A DNA stretch of 64,000 nt from a virus. A program made the translations under genes and the position numbers. Of this stretch, positions 35,582-49,361 are shown piece after piece. The stretch lies in the IMG/VR virus record IMGVR_UViG_3300025128_000017, positions 1 to 64,000 of that record. One strand, given 5' to 3'. The notes under the pieces were generated by a model. The model was not told the origin of the DNA. It searched no databases and worked only from the letters and a program-made list of their open reading frames with translations. Within the stretch, counting starts at the first letter, position 1. Each line of letters begins with the position of its first letter.

Positions 35582-36103
35582 TCATGCTGTCACCCCCGTC
35601 CACCAGTCAGGCGGGCTTGTGTGTCTGTAATGCACACCACCTTTACTGTGTATCTTGCTGTGATAATAGGCACGATAGGCTTTGACTGCATCATCATCTT
35701 TGTACTCATCAGGCATAGCCTGAGCGAATGGTGTCAGTCTGTCTCTATTGAGATGGCTGAACCCATCAACGTGCATGGCATTCATGTAACAGATAGCATC
35801 CTCACAAGCATGTTCTTTGCCGAACCTGTGTCTGTACTCAACACACAGTGCTATCCCATGTGATGTCAACCAGTCGAAGTTCTTCCATGAGTCACCAGCC
35901 CACACAGTGCATGGGTGATATTTGTACGCACCCTTGTATGGTGTGCCACTCTTGGTCAATGGCATACGCTCATCTGTGACACCATGCCTACGTAGGGCTG
36001 ATGCCATCATCTGTGCTGTCTCAACAATCATTTTCGGCACTCTCACACAATCCATCGCCTGTGCTGCCCTAATTGGGTTTTCGTCTAATACAAATATATT
36101 CAT
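35582..36103 (-). CDS. Pyrimidine-dimer DNA glycosylase-like protein (DenV-related phage family)
   Basis: 'MNIFVLD..P..AA', 'KMIVETAQM', 'HPCTVW', 'EYRHRFGKEH', 'AYRAYY'. Confidence 0.75.
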   Translation of the reverse strand: MNIFVLDENPIRAAQAMDCVRVPKMIVETAQMMASALRRHGVTDERMPLTKSGTPYKGAYKYHPCTVWAGDSWKNFDWLTSHGIALCVEYRHRFGKEHACEDAICYMNAMHVDGFSHLNRDRLTPFAQAMPDEYKDDDAVKAYRAYYHSKIHSKGGVHYRHTSPPDWWTGVTA

Positions 36104-36387
36104 TTACTCTTCCTCCTCACAAACTTCAACTGTAAAACCACATCCTACACATTCTCCATATTGTAAAATCCATTGAAAATAAGTATCACAGTTTGAACAT
36201 TTTAATAACATTACTCTTCCTCCGCAAAGATACCTGTTGCTTTTTCATAAACAGTATAGATGTCGTTATCGGGATAGAGGTGTCTATGTGTTTCTTCTAA
36301 CCACACAACATATTGAAGGTCTTCTATAAATCTTTTCTCCAATGAGTTAAGTAAATTTCTTAGTTGTTTTATTGTTCTTGTTGGCAT

Positions 36388-36870
36388 TTATTCTTCCTCC
36401 TTACGTACTGCTAATACAATACTTTTGATGTCGCTTATTATTGATGAAACATCTTCAATAGATACGAAATTACCGTACACTTGAGCCGCTAACTCTGACA
36501 TATCTATTTCTGCTGCTACTTCTGCTGAACCAAATTGTGCGTCTACGTCTATCAACTTCGCTAACTTATCGTAATCAATATCTAATTCATACGCAATGTC
36601 GCTACTATTGACATGAGAAGCAACATCTTGTACATCTATCTTGTCTGCTAAGGTGTAGTAATCGACTTCCATGTGGTCAGCAATCTCACTCTCATTCATT
36701 CCACCAGCAATATCAGCAGGGTCAATAGACAGTGCTTCTGCTAATTTATCATAGTCAATATCTATCTCATGTGCTATTTCATAGACCACATCTTCAAGTT
36801 TATCAATTGGTTCACTCATCTTTTTCATTATTCTTTCATCTATCTTTTTATTTATCCATTTCATTATCAT
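36388..36870 (-). CDS. Acidic tandem-repeat protein
   Basis: Repeated 'DIDYDKLA'/'EVDYYTLA' units with ~9-aa periodicity. Confidence 0.65.
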   Translation of the reverse strand: MIMKWINKKIDERIMKKMSEPIDKLEDVVYEIAHEIDIDYDKLAEALSIDPADIAGGMNESEIADHMEVDYYTLADKIDVQDVASHVNSSDIAYELDIDYDKLAKLIDVDAQFGSAEVAAEIDMSELAAQVYGNFVSIEDVSSIISDIKSIVLAVRKEEE

Positions 36871-36970
36871 TCTTTTTCATCTCCTTTCTTTACTCTATAT
36901 TTACCTGCTAGGTAATGTTTATGTCTTGCTTTAAACTTACTAAAATATCTTACTTTTACTGCTGTTTTCA

Positions 36971-37519
36971 TTAGTTCATCTCCTTAAACTTATCTGTTTC
37001 GTTACCCCAAATTTCCCAACCAGTTCTATTTTCCCTACTGAAAACATCTATCTTCTTAGAATTAGGATATAATTTATCTATCATTTCATAGGCATAGTTT
37101 GGTTTTCTGCTATGTTGTCTTGATTTTTCTTCAAACACTGTTAGTAATTTTCCTCTCATATTTTCTGCTATCTTAATCATTTTTGGTTTGTAATACCAAA
37201 TTAAATATTCATGAGAATATCTAACTGTAAATGCAGGTGCTACACCATTTAATTTATTCCAAATAAATATGCAGTGTTTCTTATAACCTCTCTCAAACAT
37301 ATAGTCGTCAACTACTGTAATATATTTATCAATACACCACATAAAAACAGTATTAGTTTCATTTGCTTTGGGAAATATCTCTTTATCTAGCAACGCAAAA
37401 ATATCCTCTATTTCCATAGTCACATAATCTAACTTTCTAGTTTGGTTCGGTCTAGTTTTTCTTAACCCGCCCTTACGTTTCTTCCACGGTGGGTCAATCA
37501 TCAGAATATCATACTTCAT
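36971..37519 (-). CDS. MT-A70-family adenine methyltransferase
   Basis: 'IDPPW', 'FMW', 'WNK', 'HSRKP', 'DVFSR...GWEIWGNE'. Confidence 0.9.
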   Translation of the reverse strand: MKYDILMIDPPWKKRKGGLRKTRPNQTRKLDYVTMEIEDIFALLDKEIFPKANETNTVFMWCIDKYITVVDDYMFERGYKKHCIFIWNKLNGVAPAFTVRYSHEYLIWYYKPKMIKIAENMRGKLLTVFEEKSRQHSRKPNYAYEMIDKLYPNSKKIDVFSRENRTGWEIWGNETDKFKEMN

Positions 37520-37854
37520 TCTTTCACCTCACAATAGTCTCCTATTTTTCTTTCAATCAATTCCTTTACAATGACCCTATCAACATGGGGATAATCTTCC
37601 TCAAGTATCTCCCATATCGCAATCAATTCATCAGCCATTGGCTGCAACTGCTTGACTTCTGCTAGGAGAAGTGGTGCGTCTGCTATGAGTTGTGCATTGG
37701 GATGGTCGTTGTCAGTGAAGTAAGATGTCTCAGTCACCAACACCCCGTTTGCATCTACAATGTCAAGGTGAGAGCCTTCATCATCGTATGGCTGTCCTTC
37801 GGCAGTTCGCCACGGTGCTTCGTTATGTCCTTCGTATTTGTCTGTGTCAATCAT
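37516..37854 (-). CDS. MIDxDKYE...LLAEV family protein
   Basis: 'GHNEAPW...NAQLIADAPLLLAEVKQL'. Confidence 0.65.
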   Translation of the reverse strand: MIDTDKYEGHNEAPWRTAEGQPYDDEGSHLDIVDANGVLVTETSYFTDNDHPNAQLIADAPLLLAEVKQLQPMADELIAIWEILEEDYPHVDRVIVKELIERKIGDYCEVKE

Positions 37855-38264
37855 TCCTCTTCACTTCCCGCTGGTGTATATCTTCCGCCTATGATATTAA
37901 TTACTAAGTTCGCTTCTTCAGCAAACCGAATCATTCTTTGTATCTCTTGGTCTAAAGGTTGTAAGTCAAGCATAGCACCTTCAGGATGATTCGCTTCACT
38001 ACCTTTAATGAACATCTGATATGAACCATCTGCATACTTGAGTACATCAAATGGTATATACATCAATTCACCTGAAGCAGCCGACTTAAGTATCGCTGGT
38101 TGTTCTCTTAACCACAAAGAAACATCGTCAGCAGTACGCATCTTCAAAGCGATACCATACTTCCGACCATGTTTAACAGTAGCACTAACACCTTGTATGT
38201 GTAGTCTACCTATATCATAGTTACATTTCACTTGCATTCTTTCTTCTTCTTGTTCATTCATCAT
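37851..38264 (-). CDS. Hypothetical protein
   Basis: First gene after the promoter at 38294; GAGGT RBS. Confidence 0.6.
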   Translation of the reverse strand: MMNEQEEERMQVKCNYDIGRLHIQGVSATVKHGRKYGIALKMRTADDVSLWLREQPAILKSAASGELMYIPFDVLKYADGSYQMFIKGSEANHPEGAMLDLQPLDQEIQRMIRFAEEANLVINIIGGRYTPAGSEEE

Positions 38265-38293
38265 TTTTATTACCTCTTTTTATTATTTTAATC

Positions 38294-38310
38294 TGTTCTT
38301 TTATATACTG
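38294..38310 (-). promoter_or_regulatory. Repeated promoter CAGTATATAAAAGAACA
   Basis: Exact 17-mer in intergenic gap. Confidence 0.85.
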
Positions 38311-38314
38311 TTTT

Positions 38315-39538
38315 TTAAATCCAATCATCCAAACTCCCCTTATCTAAACCTACATCTTTGTCACGTTCGACAAATTCATCAAAAGTCATTAATTTTTTAT
38401 CACTAGGTATCACAACCTCTTTTGAACATACAAGATGTTCTTCAAAGTGTAAGAATACAAGTGGTCTAACTCTACCGGATATGTCACACTTGTACTGTCT
38501 ATCTTCCCATCTTTTTCCACCATTTTTTATTCGTAAGTTTTTAGAATTACTACCGTACTTGTTTAATTTTATCAGATGTAGTTTACTAATTTCATTGTAC
38601 GTTTCTAATGGATGGAACATCTCACCAGTTTCTTCACACTTCACTTCACAGTAATCTTCATAGTTCTCATCATCCAAAGTCATTTCACCTAACCCATACA
38701 CCATATCTGTGCTACCACATATAGTACAAGGCAACTTAGCATTTGATTTCTTATCAGTTCTGAACTCGTACTGACCGCAAACATCACACCAGTATAAGAC
38801 ATAACCTTTGATATGAGTGTTAGGTATTGTCTTATGCTTACTTTTCTTGCTAGTAAAATAATTCTTACCTACCTGCTTCTTCTTACTTTTCTTCTTACTA
38901 TTCCTTTCTAACTCAAACTCAAGTTCATCAGGGTCAAATGCTTTTGATGGTGAACTCCAATCAAATACGGATGCTGAACTAGACAATGTTTGTACCTTAT
39001 CTTCACCGTGTGGTATTTGACATACTGTGGCTATATATTCTTGTTGTGACTGGGCTTCTACTGCATGGCTACAATAACTGTCTCGTACCCACTGTATCAA
39101 CTCACCTGCATCTTTCCATGTTTGATTCTTCTTCTCAATCATAAGGTGGGCTAAGATAGCCAACTGAACACCAGTACGACCATGACCACCCATACATTGA
39201 CAAGAGATAGATTTGATACCCTTGGTCTTTATATCAGCAACAAGTGATACCCAAAACTCTCTACCTACATTACTAGGTATGCTGAAGTCAGGCCACTCTA
39301 ATTCAATAATGTGTGGTGTATCAATTGCTTGTACATGATTAACACAAGTAAATCCGTCTGGTATAACATCAAACTTACGTGCTGTCCTGATAACACCTTG
39401 TGGACCAATGGCTAAATCAGGCCGTGGCTTCATTTGCATCCAACCACCATTACGTGTATTACCACCAGCGTATATTCTAATACCATCACTTGTTTCAAAC
39501 ACTAAAGGATTACCTGTGTGACAATTTACTTTACTCAT
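38315..39538 (-). CDS. Tyrosine/dual-specificity (CX5R) phosphatase with C-terminal Zn ribbons
   Basis: 'WPDFSIP' loop, 'CMGGHGRTG' P-loop, 'WVRDSY...AVEAQSQ'; CxxC pairs. Confidence 0.88.
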   Translation of the reverse strand: MSKVNCHTGNPLVFETSDGIRIYAGGNTRNGGWMQMKPRPDLAIGPQGVIRTARKFDVIPDGFTCVNHVQAIDTPHIIELEWPDFSIPSNVGREFWVSLVADIKTKGIKSISCQCMGGHGRTGVQLAILAHLMIEKKNQTWKDAGELIQWVRDSYCSHAVEAQSQQEYIATVCQIPHGEDKVQTLSSSASVFDWSSPSKAFDPDELEFELERNSKKKSKKKQVGKNYFTSKKSKHKTIPNTHIKGYVLYWCDVCGQYEFRTDKKSNAKLPCTICGSTDMVYGLGEMTLDDENYEDYCEVKCEETGEMFHPLETYNEISKLHLIKLNKYGSNSKNLRIKNGGKRWEDRQYKCDISGRVRPLVFLHFEEHLVCSKEVVIPSDKKLMTFDEFVERDKDVGLDKGSLDDWI

Positions 39539-41919
39539 TCTAAAACACCTCCTGACAATATTCTTGTCACTTGATTAGACCAGTCAACATTAGTGGTAAT
39601 CATTTTCTTAAGATATTTCTTAAGCATGGCTGATAATGTTTTATACATCGGGTCTGATTTAGTGAGACCATTCCAAGCATCAACAAATATTTGTGGCTCA
39701 ATATCATTGTACTGTTTCTGTTTTATTAGTTGAGCAACACCGTATGCTTGTGGACTAGACTTGTCATGCTTCAATGCAAAGAATGCCGAAGGTGCGTCTT
39801 CTGTAAGTAACATGCTAGTAAACTCATTCCCTATTTCAAGAGACACATTGATTATATTTTTATCCATACATGTTTCACAATCTTCATTACCACAAGGTAT
39901 GAACATATCATCGTTCAAAGTATACTTAGTGTTGTGATGTAACCACTTACTTCCCAACGAAAGAGCAGCACTACGTATAGAAGGTTGCATATGTTTAGAT
40001 GTTATCCAAACTTCCCTGTAATGTGATGGCTTTCTATGCTTTGCTGTATAACTAAACAAGGCCAACCAATCATTTTCAGGTTTGGTCGCCACAAATGTTT
40101 GCTCAATAAATGTACGTGTCACCTCGTAAGTTTTGAACATTCTACAAAGTGCTTTATCTTCATGTCCAAAGTAACCTGTTGTGTCATCTGCATCGTTTAA
40201 GGTAGCATAATCAAATGCTGAACCCTCAAGGAACTTATTGTATAAACTACCATTGTTGTGTGCAAAGTTCTCAGCCATATTGGTATGTTTAACTACATTT
40301 TTGATATGAACTTCATCTTGACACGCCAAGAACTTGCGAATAGATTTAGCCAATTCAGCAGCACCGAATGCACAATCAGCCCATGCTTTACCACCAAATG
40401 CACCCGACCAACCTGTTTTGAATTGTTGACCACACCAATTTAACGCTAGTTCCATTTCTTCATAAGTTAAATCAAAACTTTCCATAGCAAGATAGTAATG
40501 TTTACGTTGCTTACTAGGTGTACTTTCATGATTTAGTTCAATCAGTTTTTTAGTACCTATTGCCGATACAAGCACTGGGGCAAACTCAATCGACATATCT
40601 TTCTTCATACCGAAACCATGTCTTAACTCACCAAGACATAAACCAACAGCGGCCTTAACTAACCAACCTGAGAAAGCACCTGCTAACATCGAGTTATGTT
40701 TAGGATTCATGTTATGACCTGACAACCATTGGTGGAAATAATGTGCAAACCAACCTTGTTGTCTACGCCACTGTGTTCTACTTCGTTCTAAGCCATTAGC
40801 AAAAGCAGTAATATCATCAGATAGATATGGATTGTATGGGTTAGGGTCAATTGGAAGTCCTTCTTCTTTAGCAACATGTGTAGGGCTACCTTCTACCCAC
40901 ACATCACCAACAGATACATCAGCCACAATGTAAGGTATGTCATGTGCCCTACAATGTGCATAGACGTGACTACCTAATGAACCATTAGGGTGAGATATAA
41001 CGAAGTCTTCAGGCATCTTGTCCTTAGTAATGTTGGCCTCTAACCACGCTAGTTCTTCCAAACCTTCTGTCTTCCATACGTGCTTGACTTCTATCTTACC
41101 AACACCATTAGGTACTGCACCCATTTCCATAGAAAGAGTTTCAACTGTTACACCATCAATTAATCTATTGTATACGAAAGGTGGACCACGAACTGTATGT
41201 GCTTCACTACCTCTTAATTGTGTAAATTTAGTTGAACCGTGTGCAAATTTTTCAGTTAAGTAGTTCATGTCTTTTTCATATACATATTCTAATTCGTATG
41301 TGTTTGGCTGATGACCTATTTCCTGAAAATGTTCAGCACAAGTCTTATCGTTTGGATTAACTAAGTAACACAAGGTTACACCATCTTTACCAGCAGTAAT
41401 ACCATCATGGTCACGACCAATCCAAGCATAGACATTTGGTGCTAAAACCATACTAGATGAAGCAGGGACAAAAGGTTGTAATATCATACAACCATTAGGG
41501 TCTGCTTCTTTCATAGTGGTACGTAGTCTACTCCATGAGTCTTCTAAATTATCGATTGTTACTTCAATAGATTCTAACACACCGTGTCTAGCAAATTCAG
41601 GACATGCTCTGAGGAAAGCAACATCGCTACCTATTCTATTAAAAGCACTAAGTACAACATCGTATTCATCATCTAATAAGATTAATTCAGTATGTGGTAC
41701 TTTGTATTTACCTTTACCTGACTTCACTACTTTTATGTAATTCAAAAAGGATTTAGCCTTCTGTGACTTGACCATAAAAACACGTTCATTGGTAGTAGTT
41801 TCTTGTAAAGTCCTACCTGTGTTTTTATCATCTGTCACTACTTCGTTTACTTCTTCAACAAGTTGTTTGAACATATCTTCAAAATTCATTTCATCATATT
41901 GTTTTTCCATTTCATTCAC
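39535..41919 (-). CDS. PEP-synthase/PPDK-like phosphohistidine dikinase-like protein with unknown C-terminal domain
   Basis: ATP-grasp-like 'KAKSF', 'FLRACP', 'ILQPFV', 'ELEY', 'TQLR'; swivel-domain 'GSLGSHVYAHCRAHDIPYIV' (cf. GGxTSHAAIxARxxGIPxV). Confidence 0.7.
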   Translation of the reverse strand: MNEMEKQYDEMNFEDMFKQLVEEVNEVVTDDKNTGRTLQETTTNERVFMVKSQKAKSFLNYIKVVKSGKGKYKVPHTELILLDDEYDVVLSAFNRIGSDVAFLRACPEFARHGVLESIEVTIDNLEDSWSRLRTTMKEADPNGCMILQPFVPASSSMVLAPNVYAWIGRDHDGITAGKDGVTLCYLVNPNDKTCAEHFQEIGHQPNTYELEYVYEKDMNYLTEKFAHGSTKFTQLRGSEAHTVRGPPFVYNRLIDGVTVETLSMEMGAVPNGVGKIEVKHVWKTEGLEELAWLEANITKDKMPEDFVISHPNGSLGSHVYAHCRAHDIPYIVADVSVGDVWVEGSPTHVAKEEGLPIDPNPYNPYLSDDITAFANGLERSRTQWRRQQGWFAHYFHQWLSGHNMNPKHNSMLAGAFSGWLVKAAVGLCLGELRHGFGMKKDMSIEFAPVLVSAIGTKKLIELNHESTPSKQRKHYYLAMESFDLTYEEMELALNWCGQQFKTGWSGAFGGKAWADCAFGAAELAKSIRKFLACQDEVHIKNVVKHTNMAENFAHNNGSLYNKFLEGSAFDYATLNDADDTTGYFGHEDKALCRMFKTYEVTRTFIEQTFVATKPENDWLALFSYTAKHRKPSHYREVWITSKHMQPSIRSAALSLGSKWLHHNTKYTLNDDMFIPCGNEDCETCMDKNIINVSLEIGNEFTSMLLTEDAPSAFFALKHDKSSPQAYGVAQLIKQKQYNDIEPQIFVDAWNGLTKSDPMYKTLSAMLKKYLKKMITTNVDWSNQVTRILSGGVLE

Positions 41920-43639
41920 TCTCCACTATATTATCTGCACTATTTATTATTTTCATTTCATGTGGATGTATTGTTTTAGCATTGTCATCACTGTAACCAG
42001 CACCACTACGTCTTTTTAGATAACCTTCTTTGACTAAGTCTACCGCCTCATTAACTTCACTTGGATTACCAAACAAAAGCATATCTTTTACCTGTACAGC
42101 AGTCGGTAAATTTTCAGGGTCTTTATCCCATTTCATACTTAGAATTAAATCTCTTCGTACTATTCTTACACCTATATCTTCCTTTTCAACGTCAGTAAGA
42201 ACTTCACTACCTGTTGTTAAATCCCAAGTTCTCTTATGTTTAGCAACACTACCTGTTGGCATTTTATCTATCAACTGTGGTATAAAAGCCCTCAATCGTG
42301 CTGCATGTTCAATATCCTTAAACAAATACGGTATCTCCCAATTGTTGTACCCAAGTAAAACATAAACTCGCTGTGGTTCTATGGGAGTCCATTGGAACTT
42401 AGCAATTTCATGACCATAGGATGACTTCTTGTCATACTTTGTGTATCTCCAACCATCGCCACATCTGCATATTGATTTGTCTGTGTGTTCTTCCGTTTCA
42501 CCTGCTACATAACAAACTGAACATGCAGTATCATTTTCATTTCTGTTCTTACTTCGTGTGTCTTGAATCCAACTTGATACTTCTGTAAGCCAAGACCAGT
42601 CAGACCAACCATGTAATGCTCTCCTACCTATACCAGTTTTATTTACTAACCTACGACCATCCCAATTTCTCATACGTTGTATTGAACCTTTGATTTCGTT
42701 TATCACTACTTCATCAGGTACACTTTGTGCTAGTGAACGTTTGACTCTATTGAATGGTACTATGCGACTTAGTGCTGTATTTCTAGCAGTTATATTTCTA
42801 CGCTTAAATTGGTCATGATTCCAACCACTGTGAACAACACGACCCTTACCCCTATACCAAATAGTATCCATTTCATCGGAGTCTTTTTCTTCTCTAATCA
42901 TGTACCAATCAGTTGCAGTTACTTCATTGTGATGGGCACAACTACCATAGTTAGCATCATCTCTTGTGTAACCGCACTCACCTTTCGTACGCTCCCATAG
43001 AAAACTAGTTGAAGACAAAAGTGCATAGTTGTCACTCATAAGTTCATGACTAATATTGAATTTGTCTGTACCGAATTTTTCTGCTAGATATAGTAATAGA
43101 GGTTTACATTCTTCTCTCATGAGGTATGCAGTGAAATTTGGCAAATTTGTTAAGTCCCCGTTTGTCAATTGGGGAGAATCACATCTAAAATGACACGCTT
43201 TCTTAACCACATCAGGTGCATCATCGTAGTACTCCCATTTGCTGATGCGACTACTATTTTTCCAAGCAATTCTGCCTTCATATAGATAAGGAAGAGGTAG
43301 TTCATATTTAATAGTAAATACTTCATCATGTCCACATGATTCGACAAGAGGACTGGGTAAATTACCGTACCCTACCTTACCTGTCATCATAACTGTTGCA
43401 ATACGTGTATTTTGATTTACCATATCTTTCCAAGTAAGTTGTGCTTGCTCTCCGTGGTTAGCAAGAGTGTACGCCACTGCTGCATCAATAGGCCAACACT
43501 TACTCAATTTATCCTGTATACGACCTAGTGTATTATCTACTAGAATAGGGTCATCTGTCCATAGTAAAGTTTCTTCTACTACACCTGCCGATACATATCT
43601 TTGCCAAGTATTCCAACCTTCTCTTTCTGCTTTACCCAT
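41912..43639 (-). CDS. Hypothetical protein (575 aa, Trp-rich, CxxC..H..C)
   Basis: Long ORF coupled within the dikinase operon. Confidence 0.7.
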   Translation of the reverse strand: MGKAEREGWNTWQRYVSAGVVEETLLWTDDPILVDNTLGRIQDKLSKCWPIDAAVAYTLANHGEQAQLTWKDMVNQNTRIATVMMTGKVGYGNLPSPLVESCGHDEVFTIKYELPLPYLYEGRIAWKNSSRISKWEYYDDAPDVVKKACHFRCDSPQLTNGDLTNLPNFTAYLMREECKPLLLYLAEKFGTDKFNISHELMSDNYALLSSTSFLWERTKGECGYTRDDANYGSCAHHNEVTATDWYMIREEKDSDEMDTIWYRGKGRVVHSGWNHDQFKRRNITARNTALSRIVPFNRVKRSLAQSVPDEVVINEIKGSIQRMRNWDGRRLVNKTGIGRRALHGWSDWSWLTEVSSWIQDTRSKNRNENDTACSVCYVAGETEEHTDKSICRCGDGWRYTKYDKKSSYGHEIAKFQWTPIEPQRVYVLLGYNNWEIPYLFKDIEHAARLRAFIPQLIDKMPTGSVAKHKRTWDLTTGSEVLTDVEKEDIGVRIVRRDLILSMKWDKDPENLPTAVQVKDMLLFGNPSEVNEAVDLVKEGYLKRRSGAGYSDDNAKTIHPHEMKIINSADNIVESE

Positions 43640-43640
43640 C

Positions 43641-44273
43641 TTAGTTACCTCCTGATGGTGCGTATGTCATTTCAAAATTCAATTTTGACCAATCGAGAAC
43701 ATACCTTGCTTTCAAAATCTTAGCACTTTGAGCATCTTCTTTCAAATCCCAATCGTTCTCAAGATATTTCTTATTCGTTACACCATAAAACATACCACGA
43801 GGTATACATGCAGGGATTGGTTCTTTAACTGCTTTATCTTTCTGTGGACCATTCTCTAACGTGTAACTTACTCCAACATTATGTTCCCAAGTAAAACTAA
43901 TTGGTTTCAATTTAGATACATCAATATCTTTTTGTTTAAACCACCACAACATTTGTTCTCCATAGGGATGGTTACACAGACCAGACTCAGTCGTTGTGTA
44001 TACTTTCAAAATATCGCCGTCAGTTGTTTCAGGTTTCATCGCACTACTCAATTGCAAATACTCAACAGTATCTTTGTTCCACTTGCGGTCTCCCCAATTG
44101 GCAATTGCGAATATTTGTCCTGTCTCTTCGTGTTCCCAACCACCACATCTTTGTCCGTAGCCACTACCACCACAATAGAATAAACGCACCTTTCCATCAG
44201 GACATTCAAATCCCACTTTTTCGCCTTCTACCCATTGACCATTCTCTATCTTATCACTTATATCTTCACTCAT
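43641..44273 (-). CDS. Hypothetical protein
   Basis: 210 aa, ATGA-coupled. Confidence 0.65.
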   Translation of the reverse strand: MSEDISDKIENGQWVEGEKVGFECPDGKVRLFYCGGSGYGQRCGGWEHEETGQIFAIANWGDRKWNKDTVEYLQLSSAMKPETTDGDILKVYTTTESGLCNHPYGEQMLWWFKQKDIDVSKLKPISFTWEHNVGVSYTLENGPQKDKAVKEPIPACIPRGMFYGVTNKKYLENDWDLKEDAQSAKILKARYVLDWSKLNFEMTYAPSGGN

Positions 44274-44515
44274 TCTTCATTCACTCCTATTACCTCATTC
44301 CACATTTCATTTGCTTCAGTTGGTGTTACAACTGTGGTAAATATTGTATCTGATGATACATGTATATCTACATCTATAACCTTTGGATGATTACTTCCCA
44401 GTACTCTCATCTGTATAGCAGTTATATCACTATATCTAATGGCAGTAGCATAATCCATACCATCTCTTTTTGTTACCACTTCAATCCATTTTTCATTCTT
44501 ATTGTCATTCAACAT
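44270..44515 (-). CDS. Small hypothetical protein (likely leaderless start)
   Basis: ATG 16 nt from the promoter; the track's N-terminal 'SVYKRTE' is translated promoter sequence. Confidence 0.65.
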   Translation of the reverse strand: MLNDNKNEKWIEVVTKRDGMDYATAIRYSDITAIQMRVLGSNHPKVIDVDIHVSSDTIFTTVVTPTEANEMWNEVIGVNEE

Positions 44516-44530
44516 AGTTTCTTTATGTTC

Positions 44531-44547
44531 TGTTCTTTTATATACTG
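44531..44547 (-). promoter_or_regulatory. Repeated promoter CAGTATATAAAAGAACA
   Basis: Exact 17-mer. Confidence 0.85.
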
Positions 44548-44748: not shown

Positions 44749-44781
44749 AAAAAAAAAGGCGAGGGCCGTTAAGCCCCCGCC
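44749..44781 (-). terminator. Hairpin plus U9 terminator
   Basis: Minus strand GGCGGGGGC-TTAACG-GCCCTCGCC-T9; the G.U pair works only on the minus strand. Confidence 0.75.
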
Positions 44782-44827: not shown

Positions 44828-45205
44828 TTATTTAATCTCCTCCATATATTTCTTTAAATTCTTAGGTAAGTATTTGTGTAAACGTTCATTCTGCATGGCT
44901 ATATATTCATGGTTACTTACCCATATTATACCCATACTTCTTGCTTTACTTTTGTTCTTTTTCATTATACCAAGTAACCCTTCATGTGGTGGTCTAGGAT
45001 GTTCATATAAAGCACGACAATGAAAAATAGGTTCTCCCCACCTAGTAAATGCACCTTTATCAAACCATTTTTTTAAATGCCACATAGATGGTCTTAACAT
45101 ATCATAATCCGGTACACCATTTACTAAACAAAAACCGTGTGTGCTTATACTCTCATTCATATTTCTTAGCCCCTTTGTTATTTCCTTTACCTTGTCTGTA
45201 ATCAT
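44828..45205 (-). CDS. Hypothetical protein
   Basis: Follows the helicase and ends before the terminator; start probably internal (MNES). Confidence 0.55.
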   Translation of the reverse strand: MITDKVKEITKGLRNMNESISTHGFCLVNGVPDYDMLRPSMWHLKKWFDKGAFTRWGEPIFHCRALYEHPRPPHEGLLGIMKKNKSKARSMGIIWVSNHEYIAMQNERLHKYLPKNLKKYMEEIK

Positions 45206-47300
45206 CTAGCATAGACGCTGGTACTTGACCTGACTCTACCATACCTTGTAGTATCTGTTCAACTATCTCACCCCTATTTACTGCTTCTTCAGTACCATTA
45301 AGAATGGATGATATGACTCTTCTCTTTTCCTCAACCACACGGTCGAAGTGTTGGTCTATTGTTCCATCAACTGTTAGATAGATAGCCCAACAAGTATCAC
45401 CAGTAGCACCTATCCTTAGCACTCTATCTTCTGCTTGTTCTTCCCAACCTGATACCCACTCACGTTCTAAGAATACAACAGTATCAGCGGCAGTAAGAGT
45501 AATACCTGCATTGGCAGCAGTTATAGAACAAAACAGTATATCTAAATTACCATCTTGAAAGTCATCTACAATTTCCTGTCTCTTCTTAGACAATGTATCA
45601 CCTGTTATCTTTGCTACTCTTTTGATACCCGATGCAACACACTCACTCATGCAATCCTCCAACACATCTTTGTGGTGCGTATAAACTATGATTGGTTTGT
45701 TATTATTATTAGTCCTGTAATCTTCTATGTACTTTACCGCACTGTTTACTTTTAAATGTCCACACAGTTTTCTTAAGTCAGTCATCATGTTCAATACAAA
45801 ACCTCTCGGCATACCTTTGTGTGCTTTATACATATCATATTGTGAAACCCATGACGCTTGTGTCTCCATGTAATCATCTAACTCATCTTCACTAGGTTGT
45901 ACAATAAATGACTGTCTTACTTTCTTAGGTAACTGTGGTAAGACTTCTGTTTTTAGTCTACGTATCATAAAGTCTCTACACATAGCATTTAATTCCTGTG
46001 TATTACTTGCACCTTTAGTATACCAAAAACCATGATTATCTTCAGGTCTTCTACCATCGCAATATCTTAAAACATAATCTTGCCATCTACCTCTCCAGTC
46101 AGCAGGTCTAAGCATTTGTAGTATAGTAAAGAAATCAATAGGTCTGTTAGATATGGGTGTACCTGACATACATAGTATTGATTCAGCACTACCGCCAACC
46201 TTCAAACAAGACATAGTTCTTTTTGCTTTAGGGTTCTTCATGTTATCACATTCATCAAACACAACAAGATTAAACCCACGTTTGAGTATGTTGCTCTCTT
46301 GTTTAGCCATCTTAGCGTAGGTGATTACTGTAAAGTCTACGTCTTCCAGTTCATCATCACCCCTTTCAACTACTTGCACCGTTGCATCTTTAACCCAACG
46401 TAGTATTTCTTTCTTCCAATTTTGTTCTACGATAAGTGGTACAACAACAAGCACAGGCCAATGTTCAGGATGAAGTGCTGCATACGCTATGGCTTGTATC
46501 GTTTTACCAACACCCATGTCATCAGCAATTAAACAACGACCACCCGATAGTTCAGCATATCTCACACCTACATACTGAAAGCCGAACAATTCTAAATCGG
46601 GATTAAACTGTACTGCTAGTCTACTCTTCATGTCTTCTAGTGTTTCATCATCTTCTAAAGATACTGCACCACTAATTGCTATTCTTTCAACCTTGCCTTC
46701 TAGGTATGAAGCAACTTGAGGTAACTCTCTGATTGAAGTAGCCATGTTAGCACACTCACTATGTTCATCAAGAAGCGAAAGTAATTCCATACATGAACTC
46801 AATGGCACTGACCACTCAAGTGATTCAGCCTTCCATCTTCTACCACTCATACCACTTACTATACCTCTAGCAACATCATCCTTATTCATTCTCATGTGTA
46901 TGGCATCCTTAACCATACGCACACCCAAAGGAACTACAACTTTTTCAACACCTTCAGGTGCATCATATAAATAATCATGTAAGTCATCGCACAAGTAAGA
47001 TTCTGTTATACCTAAATTGTAATACTCTTTACGCTTGTAAGCATTCTCTAGTAAATCAATTGCCTTAGCGATTGTAATCTTGTCATCTTTAAGACATCTT
47101 ACTTTTGCTTCATTATCCCATTGATAATCAGGAAACTCTATTCCATTTTTTAATATCGTATGTATGTTAGCATGGTATGGATTATTCCTATCCCAATCTG
47201 ATTCTAAATCTATGGAGATACTAGGGTTATTCCATTTTCTATACATCCTGTTATATCGTTCTGCTTCTATTGTTCTACGTCTTAATACCCTACGATTCAT
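45153..47300 (-). CDS. SNF2-family (SMARCAL1/HARP-like) helicase
   Basis: 'ADDMGVGKT', 'DECD', 'SGTPISN', 'GITLT', 'QAEDRVLRIG'; HARP-like 'RRWKAESLEWSVP'. Confidence 0.9.
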   Translation of the reverse strand: MNRRVLRRRTIEAERYNRMYRKWNNPSISIDLESDWDRNNPYHANIHTILKNGIEFPDYQWDNEAKVRCLKDDKITIAKAIDLLENAYKRKEYYNLGITESYLCDDLHDYLYDAPEGVEKVVVPLGVRMVKDAIHMRMNKDDVARGIVSGMSGRRWKAESLEWSVPLSSCMELLSLLDEHSECANMATSIRELPQVASYLEGKVERIAISGAVSLEDDETLEDMKSRLAVQFNPDLELFGFQYVGVRYAELSGGRCLIADDMGVGKTIQAIAYAALHPEHWPVLVVVPLIVEQNWKKEILRWVKDATVQVVERGDDELEDVDFTVITYAKMAKQESNILKRGFNLVVFDECDNMKNPKAKRTMSCLKVGGSAESILCMSGTPISNRPIDFFTILQMLRPADWRGRWQDYVLRYCDGRRPEDNHGFWYTKGASNTQELNAMCRDFMIRRLKTEVLPQLPKKVRQSFIVQPSEDELDDYMETQASWVSQYDMYKAHKGMPRGFVLNMMTDLRKLCGHLKVNSAVKYIEDYRTNNNNKPIIVYTHHKDVLEDCMSECVASGIKRVAKITGDTLSKKRQEIVDDFQDGNLDILFCSITAANAGITLTAADTVVFLEREWVSGWEEQAEDRVLRIGATGDTCWAIYLTVDGTIDQHFDRVVEEKRRVISSILNGTEEAVNRGEIVEQILQGMVESGQVPASMLDDYRQGKGNNKGAKKYE

Positions 47301-47402
47301 GCTAATCTACTCCTTACACATTCATATACTAGGTTGCCAAGCGACCACAAAAACGCAACACCAACAAGAACTATTGGAAATACATCTACTTCACTCATAT
47401 GA

Positions 47403-47909
47403 TTACCATCCTCTCTCGTTCAAATCGTGTAACTCTTTATCTGTCAGCAGTCTATGTCCTTTTGCTTCTGCTTGTCTACATGGACGACAAACCTTGTTCA
47501 CATCATCATCTTGATATCTACCTTCACACTTTTCAGTGTAATGCCAACGGAAATCACCTACATTATGTTCAGTATCTATTGGTAGGTCAGTGTAGACGTT
47601 ACCTGTGTTACGACATTTGTATGTATATATTATACCTGCGACTTTTGGTTTTGTATCTTTCAAATAACTCGTATGGTATGCGTCCACTTCACATTCTTCT
47701 ACCCTTCTAATTGCTTCGGCTTTACTTACTGTGGCATTTGGAAACATACTTTCTTTACCATACTTAGCATCCACTGTAAAACAATCTTCTTCCCATCTTC
47801 TACGTGTCAATAGATACTGTACTCTTATTACTTCATCACCATGTTTACTTTTCTCTTTCCAATATTTATGGTGTTGAACATACGCATCTACAAATGGTAC
47901 TGAACTCAT
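47403..47909 (-). CDS. Hypothetical protein
   Basis: ATGA-coupled; Cys motifs. Confidence 0.55.
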   Translation of the reverse strand: MSSVPFVDAYVQHHKYWKEKSKHGDEVIRVQYLLTRRRWEEDCFTVDAKYGKESMFPNATVSKAEAIRRVEECEVDAYHTSYLKDTKPKVAGIIYTYKCRNTGNVYTDLPIDTEHNVGDFRWHYTEKCEGRYQDDDVNKVCRPCRQAEAKGHRLLTDKELHDLNERGW

Positions 47910-48115
47910 TCTTCTTCCCCCATATCAAACGCTTCAGCGTACATTTCCCTCACTTGCTCATCAGTTAATTGATTGTATGGAATCCAACCATCACCTGATA
48001 GAATAGCCCAAAGAAACTCACGGTCGCCGTAAGTATAAGAGTTTTCTATTAAAGCGATGTCTGTCTCTATCAATGCGTTCACCATCATTTCTCTTGTCTT
48101 TACTACATCACTCAT
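47906..48115 (-). CDS. Hypothetical protein
   Basis: ATGA-coupled at both ends. Confidence 0.6.
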   Translation of the reverse strand: MSDVVKTREMMVNALIETDIALIENSYTYGDREFLWAILSGDGWIPYNQLTDEQVREMYAEAFDMGEEE

Positions 48116-48420
48116 TCTTCCTCGCCTCCTAATTCAGCATCTAACCTAGCCAACTCTTCACGTAATGCTACTCTTCTTGCTTTCTTCTTACGCAATTCAA
48201 CTATCGCTTTCATAGCAACAGGGTCATAGTCATCAGTGTTACCTTCAGTCTCAAACCAATCAAGCAAGTCATCGAACCTCGATATGATTTCAGGTGCATA
48301 CCAATGTCCAAACATATTCATTGTACCTGACTCCTGTACACTACGGTAATCATCCCACATGGCTTTCGTTACGTTTGCTAACATTCTTCTTTGTATTTCA
48401 TTTTGTGTTAATCCTCTCAT
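48112..48420 (-). CDS. Hypothetical protein
   Basis: 'VQESGTMNMF' motif; ATGA-coupled. Confidence 0.6.
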   Translation of the reverse strand: MRGLTQNEIQRRMLANVTKAMWDDYRSVQESGTMNMFGHWYAPEIISRFDDLLDWFETEGNTDDYDPVAMKAIVELRKKKARRVALREELARLDAELGGEEE

Positions 48421-49361
48421 TCTTCCTCGCCCCCTAGTATCGCTGACAGTATGTAGTCAGCCGCTTTCTGTGCATCACCAAACGCTTTGTTCAATGCTTT
48501 GTCTTTATCTTTGCAAGCCTTGAGCCATGACTGTAAGTATGCTACGTTGTTAGCATTCTCTTCGGCCACCAAGTCAGGCTTGAACTCACCACCAAGAGTG
48601 AGTGTAACAATCAATGAACCAAGTTCAGCAATCAATTCCTCGTAGGCATACTCCGCCGAACCAAAGTGAGACTTGAGATTTCTATTTAGTCTTGTTGCAT
48701 ATCCAGTGGAGTGAACTGCCTCATGTATAGCAGTCATCACTTCACCCATGCTGTCAGTGAATGACTCATGTGGTGGTAGTACAATCTTATCGTGTACTGG
48801 TGTATAGTATGCTCTGTCGCCACCTCTTGAGTAATCAAGATTGACTTGCGATGCTACGTATTCATCCATGTGTTCCATCATTTCTGACACAGGTACAATC
48901 TCTTCAGCATTCTCAACAACGGGTGCTACGTAGTCCTCACATTGTTCAACACAAAACACTTCATAGTATCTAAGTGTACGACCGTAGTGTTCTTCTTCCT
49001 CACCCTCATCATTCTTCTTAGTGTACTTAGTAGTATTGAACCACTTGATGCTTACACCTGTACCATTCTTCAAGCCTTTGATTGACATTTTCTTAGCCAT
49101 CAACTGCTTACGTGTAGCAAACCGTAGGTCAGTCCAACCATTAGTCATCGCTTCAATCCAAAGCATGACTAGATTACCACCACGATATGATTTCTTAGAC
49201 ACTAGATTGGATGGCATACTACTCTTACCACCCTTCCAATGCTTACGCCAAGCCAACTTCTCACCCTGTATCGCACCCTCTAGTTTCTGAAACCACTCAT
49301 CGTTAGCAGTTTCTCTCTTCATCTTTGCATATTGTTTCTTCTGTTGTATACTCATCGTCAT
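48417..49361 (-). CDS. ardC: ArdC-like antirestriction protein (ssDNA-binding plus zincin domain)
   Basis: 'W.K.W', 'P.NLVSKKSYRGGN', 'AYYTP..D.I.LP', 'HEAVHSTG..RLNR', 'YAYEELIAELGS', 'YLQSW'. Confidence 0.9.
   Translation of the reverse strand: MTMSIQQKKQYAKMKRETANDEWFQKLEGAIQGEKLAWRKHWKGGKSSMPSNLVSKKSYRGGNLVMLWIEAMTNGWTDLRFATRKQLMAKKMSIKGLKNGTGVSIKWFNTTKYTKKNDEGEEEEHYGRTLRYYEVFCVEQCEDYVAPVVENAEEIVPVSEMMEHMDEYVASQVNLDYSRGGDRAYYTPVHDKIVLPPHESFTDSMGEVMTAIHEAVHSTGYATRLNRNLKSHFGSAEYAYEELIAELGSLIVTLTLGGEFKPDLVAEENANNVAYLQSWLKACKDKDKALNKAFGDAQKAADYILSAILGGEEE

What the first reader, a model, noticed from the sequence alone, without database searches (positions are those of the whole stretch)
38315..44547. 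Five-gene operon pairing a phosphohistidine dikinase-like enzyme with a CX5R phosphatase
One promoter (44531) heads coupled genes of 81, 210, 575, 794 and 407 aa, ending at the next promoter. The 794-aa protein has ATP-grasp-like and His-swivel motifs of the PEP synthase/PPDK/rifampin phosphotransferase/glucan-water dikinase family. In place of the pyruvate-binding barrel it has an unknown helical domain ('FGGKAWADC...AHNNGSLYNK'). The next gene is an intact phosphatase. Plant glucan-water dikinase and SEX4 are a known writer/eraser pair of these two folds. Inference: a viral reversible phosphorylation system for an unknown substrate (protein, glycan, nucleotide or DNA end), possibly anti-defence.
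Basis: partly seen in the sequence, partly recalled or inferred. Interest (0 to 1): 0.8.

Follow-up and report, generated by a model that had tools for sequence, protein, structure and literature searches.

The report
Viral swivel-histidine kinase with phosphatase partner
A marine archaeal virus encodes an ATP-driven enzyme that carries phosphate on a swinging histidine to a substrate-binding domain of unknown fold, always next to a cysteine phosphatase; the pair recurs in many viruses of archaea and bacteria, and its target is unknown.

Summary
Five tightly coupled minus-strand genes (81, 210, 575, 794 and 407 aa) lie between two copies of an 18-nt promoter-like motif.

The 794-aa protein matches no Pfam, PHROG, NCBIfam or PDB sequence. 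A confident AlphaFold model shows three parts:
- an ATP-grasp domain;
- a PEP-utilizer-type swivel domain with His318, invariant in 87 of 87 relatives;
- a roughly 330-residue helical domain with no match in the PDB.

Its best structural matches include PPDK and rifampin phosphotransferase. Among viral models the best match is Bacillus phage G gp139, a true PPDK_N + PEP-utilizers protein.

The 407-aa protein is a PTP-superfamily phosphatase (WPD, CX5R, Q-loop-like motif) with a Lys-rich linker and a zinc-ribbon-like tail.

The two genes are adjacent in every testable viral locus, searched from either gene. This includes unrelated bacterial-virus contigs. Only these two genes, plus a 137-aa neighbour in the archaeal viruses, are conserved, so this is not a five-gene unit.

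The substrate and the "writer/eraser" logic remain inference. This scan had already flagged the same module in other viral genomes. I found no description in the magrovirus papers I read. I rate it a new variant of a known kind (a dikinase with a new acceptor domain and an obligate phosphatase partner).

The parts
44530..44547 (-). Promoter-like 18-mer (TATA-box-like CAGTATATAAAAGAACAG) heading the unit. The ATG of the first gene lies 15 nt downstream of the motif's end.
   Evidence: 8 copies on the minus strand against 0.18 expected; sequence context.
44270..44515 (-). 81-aa acidic protein, poorly conserved
   Evidence: A homologue was found in only 1 of 45 related loci.
43641..44273 (-). 210-aa protein, poorly conserved, no family match
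   Evidence: Homologues in 2 related loci.
41912..43639 (-). 575-aa Cys/Trp-rich orphan protein. It is conserved in the neighbourhood, but its position varies.
   Evidence: Profile hits in 32 loci, either directly upstream of the kinase or 2-3 kb downstream of the phosphatase. No Pfam, PHROG or PDB match.
39535..41919 (-). 794-aa dikinase-type phosphotransferase. The likely true start is the ATG at residue 4.
   Evidence: AF2 model with pLDDT 86; fold matches; 808 relative clusters.
41110..41772 (-). ATP-grasp domain (residues ~50-270) carrying K54, R104..G113..S117, HDGITAG 171-177, E209/E211 and Q234/R236
   Evidence: VIA Z 9.8 over 159 aa to biotin carboxylase. RPH 5hv1 gives Z 7.3 over 184 aa and HpeI Z 6.8. 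Motifs are in register with PpsA and gp139 and invariant across the family.
40855..41097 (-). Phosphohistidine swivel domain (residues ~275-355). The catalytic His318 codon is at 40966-40968.
   Evidence: The PPDK 1dik alignment runs over residues 32-353 (260 aa, Z 8.7) and RPH 5hv3 over 22-353 (269 aa, Z 8.5). hhalign places H318 on PpsA H421. The motif G-x4-H-x5-R-x3-IP appears in 41 of 200000 shuffles. H318 is present in 87 of 87 relatives.
39850..40842 (-). Orphan helical acceptor domain (residues ~360-690) with invariant E431, R433, R472, G509, G510, H554 and K562, near-invariant H396 and N547, plus an H661/C676/C681/C684 cluster
   Evidence: Domain model with pLDDT 88. Foldseek against the PDB gave only noise. 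The best VIA-wide match is Z 6.7, to GPCR-like helical bundles. Conservation.
38315..39538 (-). 407-aa PTP-superfamily cysteine phosphatase. Core is residues 1-182 (W82-P83-D84; C115-x5-R121, Cys codon at 39194-39196; V160-E161-x3-Q165-Q166). A Lys-rich linker spans 183-245 and a CxxC-rich tail spans 246-407.
   Evidence: Profile against the PDB: CRYP-2 at E 2.9e-6 and PTPRO at E 6.6e-5, with the WPD, CX5R and Q-loop regions aligned. Invariant columns; charge and CxxC analysis.
38293..38310 (-). Next copy of the promoter-like 18-mer, closing the unit
37851..38264 (-). 137-aa acidic orphan protein. It follows the phosphatase in archaeal-virus relatives and is probably a third member of the module.
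   Evidence: Profile hits in 40 loci, including the misbinned MAG contig L048. It is absent from the bacterial-type loci. No PDB or Pfam match.

Best explanation
The 794-aa and 407-aa genes form a two-enzyme phosphoryl-transfer module. It is expressed from an early-region promoter of a magrovirus-like archaeal virus.

Shown by computation: the 794-aa protein has the catalytic layout of the PEP synthase / PPDK / rifampin phosphotransferase superfamily. That layout is an N-terminal ATP-grasp with the family's Lys, Arg, Glu and Gln-x-Arg motifs, followed by a swivel domain with an invariant His. In place of a PEP/pyruvate barrel it has an orphan helical domain with its own set of invariant polar residues.

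Inferred mechanism:
1. ATP binds the grasp domain.
2. His318 takes the beta-phosphate, releasing AMP and Pi.
3. The swivel domain carries the phosphate to the helical domain.
4. There, the Glu431-x-Arg433 pair and residues R472, H554 and K562 transfer it to a hydroxyl of a bound substrate.
5. The translationally coupled PTP-type phosphatase (Cys115 nucleophile, Asp84 general acid) hydrolyses that phosphoester or a closely related one. The virus thereby gets a timed or reversible mark.

The substrate is unknown. The pair moves between archaeal and bacterial viruses, sits among DNA-metabolism genes, and its phosphatase carries a Lys-rich linker plus zinc-ribbon-like tail. My best guess is therefore a target common to both domains of life and associated with nucleic acid: a DNA or RNA end or base, or a DNA-bound protein.
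For: - Fold: the AF2 model has pLDDT 86. The top Foldseek PDB hit is PPDK 1kbl, followed by ATP-grasp enzymes and RPH. By VIA, PPDK 1dik gives Z 8.7 over 260 aa spanning residues 32-353, and RPH 5hv3 gives Z 8.5 over 269 aa.
- Viral match: the best viral model is phage G gp139 (E 1.8e-4, target TM 0.51). By Pfam, gp139 is PPDK_N (1.8e-46) plus PEP-utilizers (1.5e-21).
- Motifs: six are collinear and in register with PpsA and gp139. R104, E211, Q234, R236 and H318 are invariant in 87 of 87 relatives, and K54 in all 85 with a residue aligned there. The same holds for E431, R433, R472, H554 and K562 in the helical domain.
- Phosphatase.
- Linkage from the kinase side: the phosphatase is next downstream in every locus that has downstream DNA.
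- Linkage from the phosphatase side: 51 of 51 testable loci.
- Linkage in distant bacterial-type contigs: L051, L052 and podovirus MW202572.
- Coupling: ATGA start/stop overlap.
- Precedent: in RPH an Arg-Glu pair in the acceptor domain is essential for the second transfer, and Lys22 is essential for the first (PMC4844700).
- Phosphatase tail: a basic linker is present in 24 of 24 homologues.
Against: - No sequence method reaches significance. Pfam PPDK_N and PEP-utilizers do not match. hhalign against PpsA gives only E 0.056 for the swivel and 0.017 for the collinear alignment.
- Generic ATP-grasp ligases score as high as PPDK or RPH on the grasp domain alone.
- Nothing shows that the phosphatase acts on the kinase's product.
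- No fused kinase-phosphatase form was found.
- The helical domain gave no clue to the ligand.
- A kinase and a phosphatase acting on one site would be a futile cycle unless separated in time or space.
Confidence: 0.6

Rival explanations
1. Small-molecule dikinase, like RPH, HpeHI or phenylphosphate synthase. The helical domain would bind a metabolite, antibiotic-like compound or nucleotide second messenger and phosphorylate it to inactivate or activate it. The PTP would recycle it or act on an aryl or sugar phosphate.
For: Every characterised family member with a non-barrel acceptor domain acts on a small molecule: RPH (PMC4844700) and HpeHI (PMC12167813). HpeI appears among the structural matches (Z 6.8). 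PTP enzymes hydrolyse aryl phosphates (general knowledge). A module that moves between host domains fits a universal metabolite.
Against: The acceptor domain does not resemble the RIF-binding or HpeH domains in the searches run. The phosphatase carries a Lys-rich linker and zinc-ribbon-like tail that a metabolite enzyme would not need. The neighbours are DNA-metabolism genes.
Confidence: 0.2
2. Two-site processing rather than writer/eraser. This would be a polynucleotide end-healing pair functionally like T4 Pnkp: the kinase phosphorylates 5'-OH ends and the phosphatase removes 3'-phosphates, so that a ligase can seal damage made by host nucleases.
For: An obligate kinase-plus-phosphatase pairing is the hallmark of end-healing enzymes (general knowledge of T4 Pnkp). 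The context includes an SNF2 helicase, and in relatives a PD-(D/E)XK nuclease and DnaB. The phosphatase has a basic linker and CxxC tail. Magroviruses almost always encode a DNA ligase (PMC10160649).
Against: No known polynucleotide kinase uses a swivel histidine. Known 3'-phosphatases are HAD or metallophosphoesterase enzymes, not WPD-type PTPs. No nucleic-acid-binding fold was recognised in the helical domain.
Confidence: 0.12
3. The phosphatase regulates the kinase itself, resetting a phosphorylated residue next to the catalytic His. This would parallel the control of PPDK and PEP synthase by PDRP/PpsR.
For: E. coli ppsA sits next to its regulator ppsR. Position 317, beside His318, is Ser in 71 of 87 relatives and Asp in 12.
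Against: PDRP/PpsR are unrelated kinase/pyrophosphorylases, not PTPs. This reading leaves the true substrate unexplained. The long variable tail of the phosphatase suggests that it binds something else.
Confidence: 0.08
4. The 794-aa protein is an ordinary ATP-grasp ligase or carboxylase-type auxiliary metabolic gene, and its resemblance to a swivel domain is incidental.
For: Biotin carboxylases give the highest VIA Z (9.8) on the grasp domain. The Pfam dikinase models do not match.
Against: There is no biotin-carboxylase N- or C-domain, BCCP or carboxyltransferase. An invariant His sits in a PEP-utilizer-type motif directly after the grasp domain. The N-terminal Lys motif and the R..G..[DE]-S motif are typical of PPDK_N. 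The best viral match is a true PPDK_N + PEP-utilizers protein.
Confidence: 0.05

Closest known systems
Rifampin phosphotransferase (RPH-Lm; PDB 5hv1, 5hv3, 5fbs; PMC4844700)
   Same: It has an ATP-grasp, a His-swivel and a non-barrel acceptor domain. Like X794, it has a Lys near the N-terminus and a Glu/Arg pair in the acceptor domain. Structural matches are Z 8.5 over 269 aa and Z 7.3 over 184 aa.
   Different: The domain order differs: in RPH the acceptor domain is inserted and the swivel is C-terminal. The acceptor domains show no detectable similarity. RPH has no dedicated phosphatase partner. RPH matches the Pfam models and this protein does not.
Pyruvate phosphate dikinase / PEP synthase (PDB 1kbl, 1dik; E. 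coli PpsA)
   Same: The order is the same: grasp, then swivel, then acceptor. The motifs are in register and His318 aligns with PpsA His421.
   Different: There is no PEP/pyruvate TIM barrel. The sequences have diverged beyond the reach of HMMs.
Two-component small-molecule dikinases (HpeHI, phenylphosphate synthase; PMC12167813)
   Same: The same chemistry is applied to substrates other than pyruvate. HpeI is among the structural matches.
   Different: Those enzymes are split into two proteins, use an RPH-like acceptor domain, and act in catabolism. This one is a single chain, viral, and has a new acceptor domain.
Glucan, water dikinase with SEX4 / laforin
   Same: A swivel-His dikinase works together with a CX5R phosphatase on one substrate.
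   Different: GWD has the reverse domain order (His domain before a C-terminal grasp) and carbohydrate-binding modules (general knowledge). No such modules are detectable here. SEX4 is a DSP with a CBM, whereas this phosphatase has a zinc-ribbon-like tail.
Bacillus phage G gp139 ('pyruvate phosphate dikinase', 365 aa)
   Same: It is the best viral structural match and consists of a grasp plus a swivel domain only.
   Different: It has no acceptor domain, and no PTP or helical partner was detected among its neighbours gp136-gp145.
M. tuberculosis VadK (PPDK-derived autophosphorylating kinase; PMC13400623)
   Same: It is a PPDK-superfamily enzyme that, according to the paper, was repurposed from central carbon metabolism to a regulatory kinase that autophosphorylates and interacts with methylcitrate-cycle enzymes.
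   Different: It is cellular and has no phosphatase partner. No sequence relationship was tested here.

Membership tests
PEPS/PPDK/RPH swivel-histidine dikinase superfamily | ATP-grasp nucleotide-binding domain | tested here: met
   Nearly all of the top 50 VIA matches are ATP-grasp enzymes aligned over residues ~50-245, with Z up to 9.8. Foldseek gives probability 1.00.
PEPS/PPDK/RPH swivel-histidine dikinase superfamily | Family-specific ATP/phosphate-binding residues (equivalents of PPDK/RPH Lys22, the R-S-S..G..D-T loop, the Mg-binding Glu, and Q-x-R) | tested here: met
   K54, R104..G113..E116-S117, E209/E211 and Q234/R236 are collinear and in register with PpsA and gp139. R104, E211, Q234 and R236 are invariant in 87 of 87 relatives, and K54 in all 85 with a residue aligned there. 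The mapping rests on motif register, not on superposed coordinates.
PEPS/PPDK/RPH swivel-histidine dikinase superfamily | Swivel (PEP-utilizer mobile) domain with a catalytic His | tested here: met
   The PPDK and RPH alignments extend through residue 353. H318 aligns with PpsA H421. The motif appears in 41 of 200000 shuffles. H318 is present in 87 of 87 relatives.
PEPS/PPDK/RPH swivel-histidine dikinase superfamily | Match to the curated sequence models PF01326 (PPDK_N) and PF00391 (PEP-utilizers) | tested here: not met
   The protein has no Pfam hit. A six-frame search of the virus genome with PF01326 found nothing. The profile-profile comparison is not significant.
PEPS/PPDK/RPH swivel-histidine dikinase superfamily | Autophosphorylation on His with ATP converted to AMP + Pi | not testable with these tools
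   Needs biochemistry.
PEP synthase / PPDK proper | C-terminal PEP/pyruvate-binding TIM barrel (PEP-utilizers_C) | tested here: not met
   Residues 360-794 are all-helical in the model. There is no Pfam hit.
Rifampin phosphotransferase | RIF-binding acceptor domain | tested here: inconclusive
   No RPH row appears for the C-terminal domain model in Foldseek or VIA-wide. Absence from those lists does not exclude a relationship.
PTP superfamily (cysteine phosphatases) | C-x5-R-(S/T) phosphate-binding loop | tested here: met
   C115-M-G-G-H-G-R121-T122 is invariant in 24 homologues.
PTP superfamily (cysteine phosphatases) | General-acid Asp on a WPD-type loop about 30 residues upstream of the Cys | tested here: met
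   W82-P83-D84 is invariant and aligns with the WPD loop of CRYP-2 and PTPRO.
PTP superfamily (cysteine phosphatases) | Significant match to known PTP sequences or models | tested here: met
   The family profile against the PDB gives E 2.9e-6. The protein alone scores below the Pfam cut-off (18 against 20.9 bits). Several homologues carry PF00102, and distant partners pass PF22784 and PF00102.
Classical pTyr-specific PTPs | Q-loop Gln and the pTyr-recognition (KNRY) loop | tested here: inconclusive
   V160-E161-x3-Q165-Q166-x-Y aligns with the Q-loop region, but Glu takes the place of the first Gln. No KNRY motif is present. The core is only about 180 aa.
GWD / SEX4 glucan phosphorylation pair | Carbohydrate-binding modules, and the GWD domain order (His domain before a C-terminal grasp) | tested here: not met
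   The order here is grasp, then His, then acceptor. No CBM was found in either protein by Pfam.
Biotin-dependent carboxylase (a label used loosely for magrovirus AMGs) | Biotin carboxylase N- and C-domains, BCCP, carboxyltransferase | tested here: not met
   Only the central grasp part aligns (residues 53-243). There are no Pfam hits.

The most novel reading that the evidence does not exclude
The helical domain binds a macromolecule: a protein side chain such as Tyr, or a DNA or RNA hydroxyl. That would make this the first swivel-histidine 'dikinase' to act as a protein or nucleic-acid kinase. With its dedicated PTP eraser, it would be used early in infection, by viruses of both archaea and bacteria, to take over the host or disarm a defence.
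Probability: 0.3. Interest if true: 0.85.

Novelty: new variant of a known kind. Interest (0 to 1): 0.62.

Why it matters
Swivel-histidine dikinases are known for pyruvate, starch, rifampin and phenolic compounds. This family adds an unrecognised acceptor domain. It comprises at least 808 sequence clusters at E <= 0.001, none annotated and none matched by Pfam. Every full-length member whose flanks could be read sits next to a cysteine phosphatase.

The family occurs in magroviruses, abundant viruses of uncultured ocean archaea, and also in bacterial-virus contigs. It is therefore probably a common viral tool with a target shared by bacteria and archaea. Identifying that target would define a new enzyme activity and possibly a new way for viruses to manipulate host cells. 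It would also correct database labels that are either empty or borrowed from central metabolism.

Tried and rejected
- Sequence searches of the 794-aa protein found nothing useful: Pfam, PHROGs, NCBIfam, PDB by sequence and by profile, tblastn against the phage collection, and the ESM Atlas for the helical domain.
- hhalign against E. coli PpsA, against an 8-member PEPS/PPDK alignment built from genomes, and against phage G gp139 gave correctly registered but non-significant alignments.
- The helical domain, folded alone and searched with Foldseek PDB and VIA-wide, gave only noise: transporters and GPCR-like bundles, best Z 6.7.
- The 575-aa and 137-aa proteins gave no PDB or Pfam match.
- Fused kinase-phosphatase forms were not found among the kinase homologues or among longer proteins sharing the phosphatase core. 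The second result is weak evidence.
- The phage G gp139 neighbourhood was checked for a split form of the module and none was detected.
- The 'pyruvate carboxylase / phosphatase' AMGs reported for group A magroviruses (PMC11706807) could not be tied to these genes. In that text they appear to be a carboxyltransferase-type gene and a class A acid phosphatase.
- I considered glycogen or glucan as the substrate and set it aside, because neither protein has a carbohydrate-binding module.


Full report
**What is there**

The window comes from a 96-kb viral record. It encodes a family B DNA polymerase, a Cpn60/TCP-1 chaperonin, an SNF2 helicase, an ArdC-like protein and tail proteins. These features, a TATA-like repeated promoter motif, and homologues found on contigs binned as archaea fit the magroviruses of Marine Group II archaea. 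SNF2 is reported for group A (PMC5434244).

On the minus strand, genes of 81, 210, 575, 794 and 407 aa follow each other with ATGA overlaps or gaps of 1-2 nt. Each junction has a Shine-Dalgarno-like site inside the end of the upstream gene. The 18-mer CAGTATATAAAAGAACAG occurs eight times, always on this strand, against 0.18 expected. Exact copies lie at 44530-44547 and 38293-38310.

**The 794-aa protein**

No sequence library recognises it. It nevertheless has 75 full-length relatives in the word-indexed search and 808 clusters at E <= 0.001 in the exhaustive one. All are unannotated, and none of the eight long relatives scanned has a Pfam hit.

An AlphaFold model built on 43 relatives is confident (pLDDT 86, pTM 0.79).
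- Foldseek against the PDB puts PPDK 1kbl first. ATP-grasp ligases, the ATP-binding domain of rifampin phosphotransferase (RPH) and PEP synthase follow.
- VIA-align gives Z 8-9.8 for generic ATP-grasp enzymes over residues 53-243.
- PPDK 1dik aligns 260 residues over 32-353 (Z 8.7). RPH 5hv3 aligns 269 residues over 22-353 (Z 8.5). Both therefore cover the grasp domain and the domain that follows it.
- An unfiltered search of 48,161 chains again returns ATP-grasp folds, including RPH and HpeI.
- Among predicted viral structures, the only hit with E < 0.001 is Bacillus phage G gp139 (E 1.8e-4; TM 0.51 normalised to the target, covering its whole length). Pfam identifies gp139 as PPDK_N plus PEP-utilizers.

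**Motifs**

Six motifs occur in the order and register of PpsA and gp139:
- S-Q-K54
- R104-x8-G113-x2-E116-S117
- H-D-G-I-T-A-G177
- E209-x-E211
- Q234-x-R236
- G313-x4-H318-x5-R324-x3-I-P329

hhalign places His318 on PpsA His421. The RPH paper numbers the PEPS swivel His as 422 and describes it as conserved in RPH, PEPS, PPDK and enzyme I (PMC4844700). The His motif arises in 41 of 200000 shuffles of the protein. Across 87 relatives of 543-875 aa, R104, E211, Q234, R236 and H318 never vary, and K54 is present in all 85 with a residue aligned there.

Profile-profile statistics remain non-significant (E 0.017-0.056). The assignment therefore rests on predicted structure plus motif register, not on sequence statistics.

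**The acceptor domain**

Residues 360-794 are helical. Folded alone (pLDDT 88), this part matches nothing meaningful. Foldseek gives transporter noise. VIA-wide gives at best Z 6.7, to GPCR-like bundles, below the level the tool itself treats as informative for helical proteins.

The domain has its own invariant set: E431-x-R433, R472, G509-G510, H554 and K562, with H396 and N547 nearly so. The longer forms also carry an H661/C676/C681/C684 cluster. In RPH an Arg-Glu pair in the acceptor domain is essential for the second phosphotransfer (PMC4844700). By analogy, E431 and R433 are my candidates for that role; this is inference.

**The 407-aa protein**

Its first ~180 residues carry W82-P83-D84, C115-x5-R121-T and V160-E161-x3-Q165-Q166. 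All are invariant or nearly so in 24 homologues. The family profile hits the receptor PTPs CRYP-2 and PTPRO (E 2.9e-6 and 6.6e-5), with these loops aligned. The single sequence scores just under the Pfam cut-off.

A Lys/Arg-rich stretch follows the core (net +6 to +14 in 30 residues) in all 24 homologues, and most also have CxxC pairs. This looks like a tether to a polyanion. I treat that as a hint, not a result.

**Linkage**

- Starting from the kinase, 45 viral loci were fetched. In every locus with downstream DNA, the phosphatase is the next gene on the same strand.
- Starting from the phosphatase, 52 loci were fetched. In 51 the kinase lies immediately upstream. In the remaining one, the contig ends 66 nt before the phosphatase.
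- At 25-29% identity the same pair appears on an Acidobacteriales MAG contig (with an SNF2 helicase upstream), on a Thermoanaerobaculia contig, and in a 41-kb freshwater podovirus. There the partner is annotated as a dual-specificity phosphatase.
- Two deltaproteobacterial loci hold a shorter relative with no detected phosphatase.

The pair is therefore a mobile two-gene module. It is not confined to one virus lineage or one host domain.

**What the five-gene unit is not**

The 81-aa gene recurs in one related locus and the 210-aa gene in two. The 575-aa orphan recurs in 32 loci, either directly upstream of the kinase or 2-3 kb downstream of the phosphatase. It follows the phosphatase in 40 loci but is absent from the bacterial-type contigs.

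**Mechanism and rivals**

Most likely (0.6), this is a dikinase-type phosphotransferase. ATP binds the grasp domain, His318 picks up the beta-phosphate, and the swivel domain delivers it to a hydroxyl on a substrate held by the helical domain. The coupled phosphatase then removes that phosphate or a related one.

The chemistry up to the phospho-His is inferred from family membership. Everything after it is inference. The rivals are:
- a small-molecule dikinase in the manner of RPH or HpeHI (0.2);
- a Pnkp-like end-healing pair acting on two different sites of a polynucleotide (0.12);
- a phosphatase that resets the kinase (0.08);
- a plain ATP-grasp ligase (0.05).

**Comparison, novelty and caveats**

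The nearest relatives by mechanism are RPH and PPDK/PEPS. This protein fails the PEPS/PPDK test (no barrel) and the Pfam model tests. It differs from RPH in domain order and in its acceptor domain. The GWD/SEX4 analogy holds only at the level of "dikinase plus CX5R phosphatase".

The main texts of three magrovirus papers do not describe these genes. The same scan had already flagged this module in three other viral genomes, and a split form in phages. I reached my fold and linkage results before reading those notes, and they agree.

I call this a new variant of a known kind.

Noticed in passing
window 17365-53193, minus strand: An 18-nt TATA-like motif (CAGTATATAAAAGAACAG) occurs eight times with at most 3 mismatches, always on the minus strand, in front of gene blocks of the early/replication arm. 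It probably defines the early transcription units.
   Followed up: partly
window 39538-39565, 41912-41945, 43639-43670, 44270-44300: Internal genes of the unit have GGAGG-type ribosome-binding sites embedded in the last codons of the upstream gene. This may explain why many proteins here and in relatives end in Gly-Gly or Glu-Glu. The first gene, by contrast, starts 15 nt after the promoter-like 18-mer and looks nearly leaderless.
   Followed up: partly
window 37516-37854 and loci L002, L008, L025, L030: The 112-aa protein (phrog_1273) belongs to a small-protein family present in several tandem copies per virus, up to four in L030. The copies share a conserved N-terminal stretch of about 75 residues.
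   Followed up: no
window 35582-37519 and 45153-49361: The pair sits among counter-restriction or DNA-handling genes: an MT-A70-type methyltransferase (36971-37519), a pyrimidine-dimer-glycosylase-like gene (35582-36103), an SNF2 helicase (45153-47300), and ArdC-N plus a zincin peptidase (48417-49361).
   Followed up: partly
L116:7881-8978 (Bacillus phage G gp139): A cultured jumbo phage encodes a 365-aa 'headless' PPDK consisting only of PPDK_N and PEP-utilizers domains. It lies among nucleotide-metabolism genes, and neither an acceptor domain nor a phosphatase was detected nearby.
   Followed up: partly
proteins P0110, P0124, P0129, P0134, P0164 and others: Relatives of 900-1400 aa carry the kinase core in the middle or at the C-terminal end, with N-terminal extensions of 200-570 residues. 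The eight of these scanned (P0110, P0124, P0127, P0129, P0131, P0134, P0138, P0175) have no Pfam match.
   Followed up: no
window 44758-44781, minus strand: A 10-bp GC-rich hairpin followed by a run of nine T lies just upstream of the unit. It is a bacterial-style terminator in a virus thought to infect archaea.
   Followed up: no
window 38315-39538, residues 6-7 and 156-158: The phosphatase has invariant Cys6-His7 and Cys156-x-His158 outside the catalytic loop. They may form a structural metal site not seen in classical PTPs.
   Followed up: no
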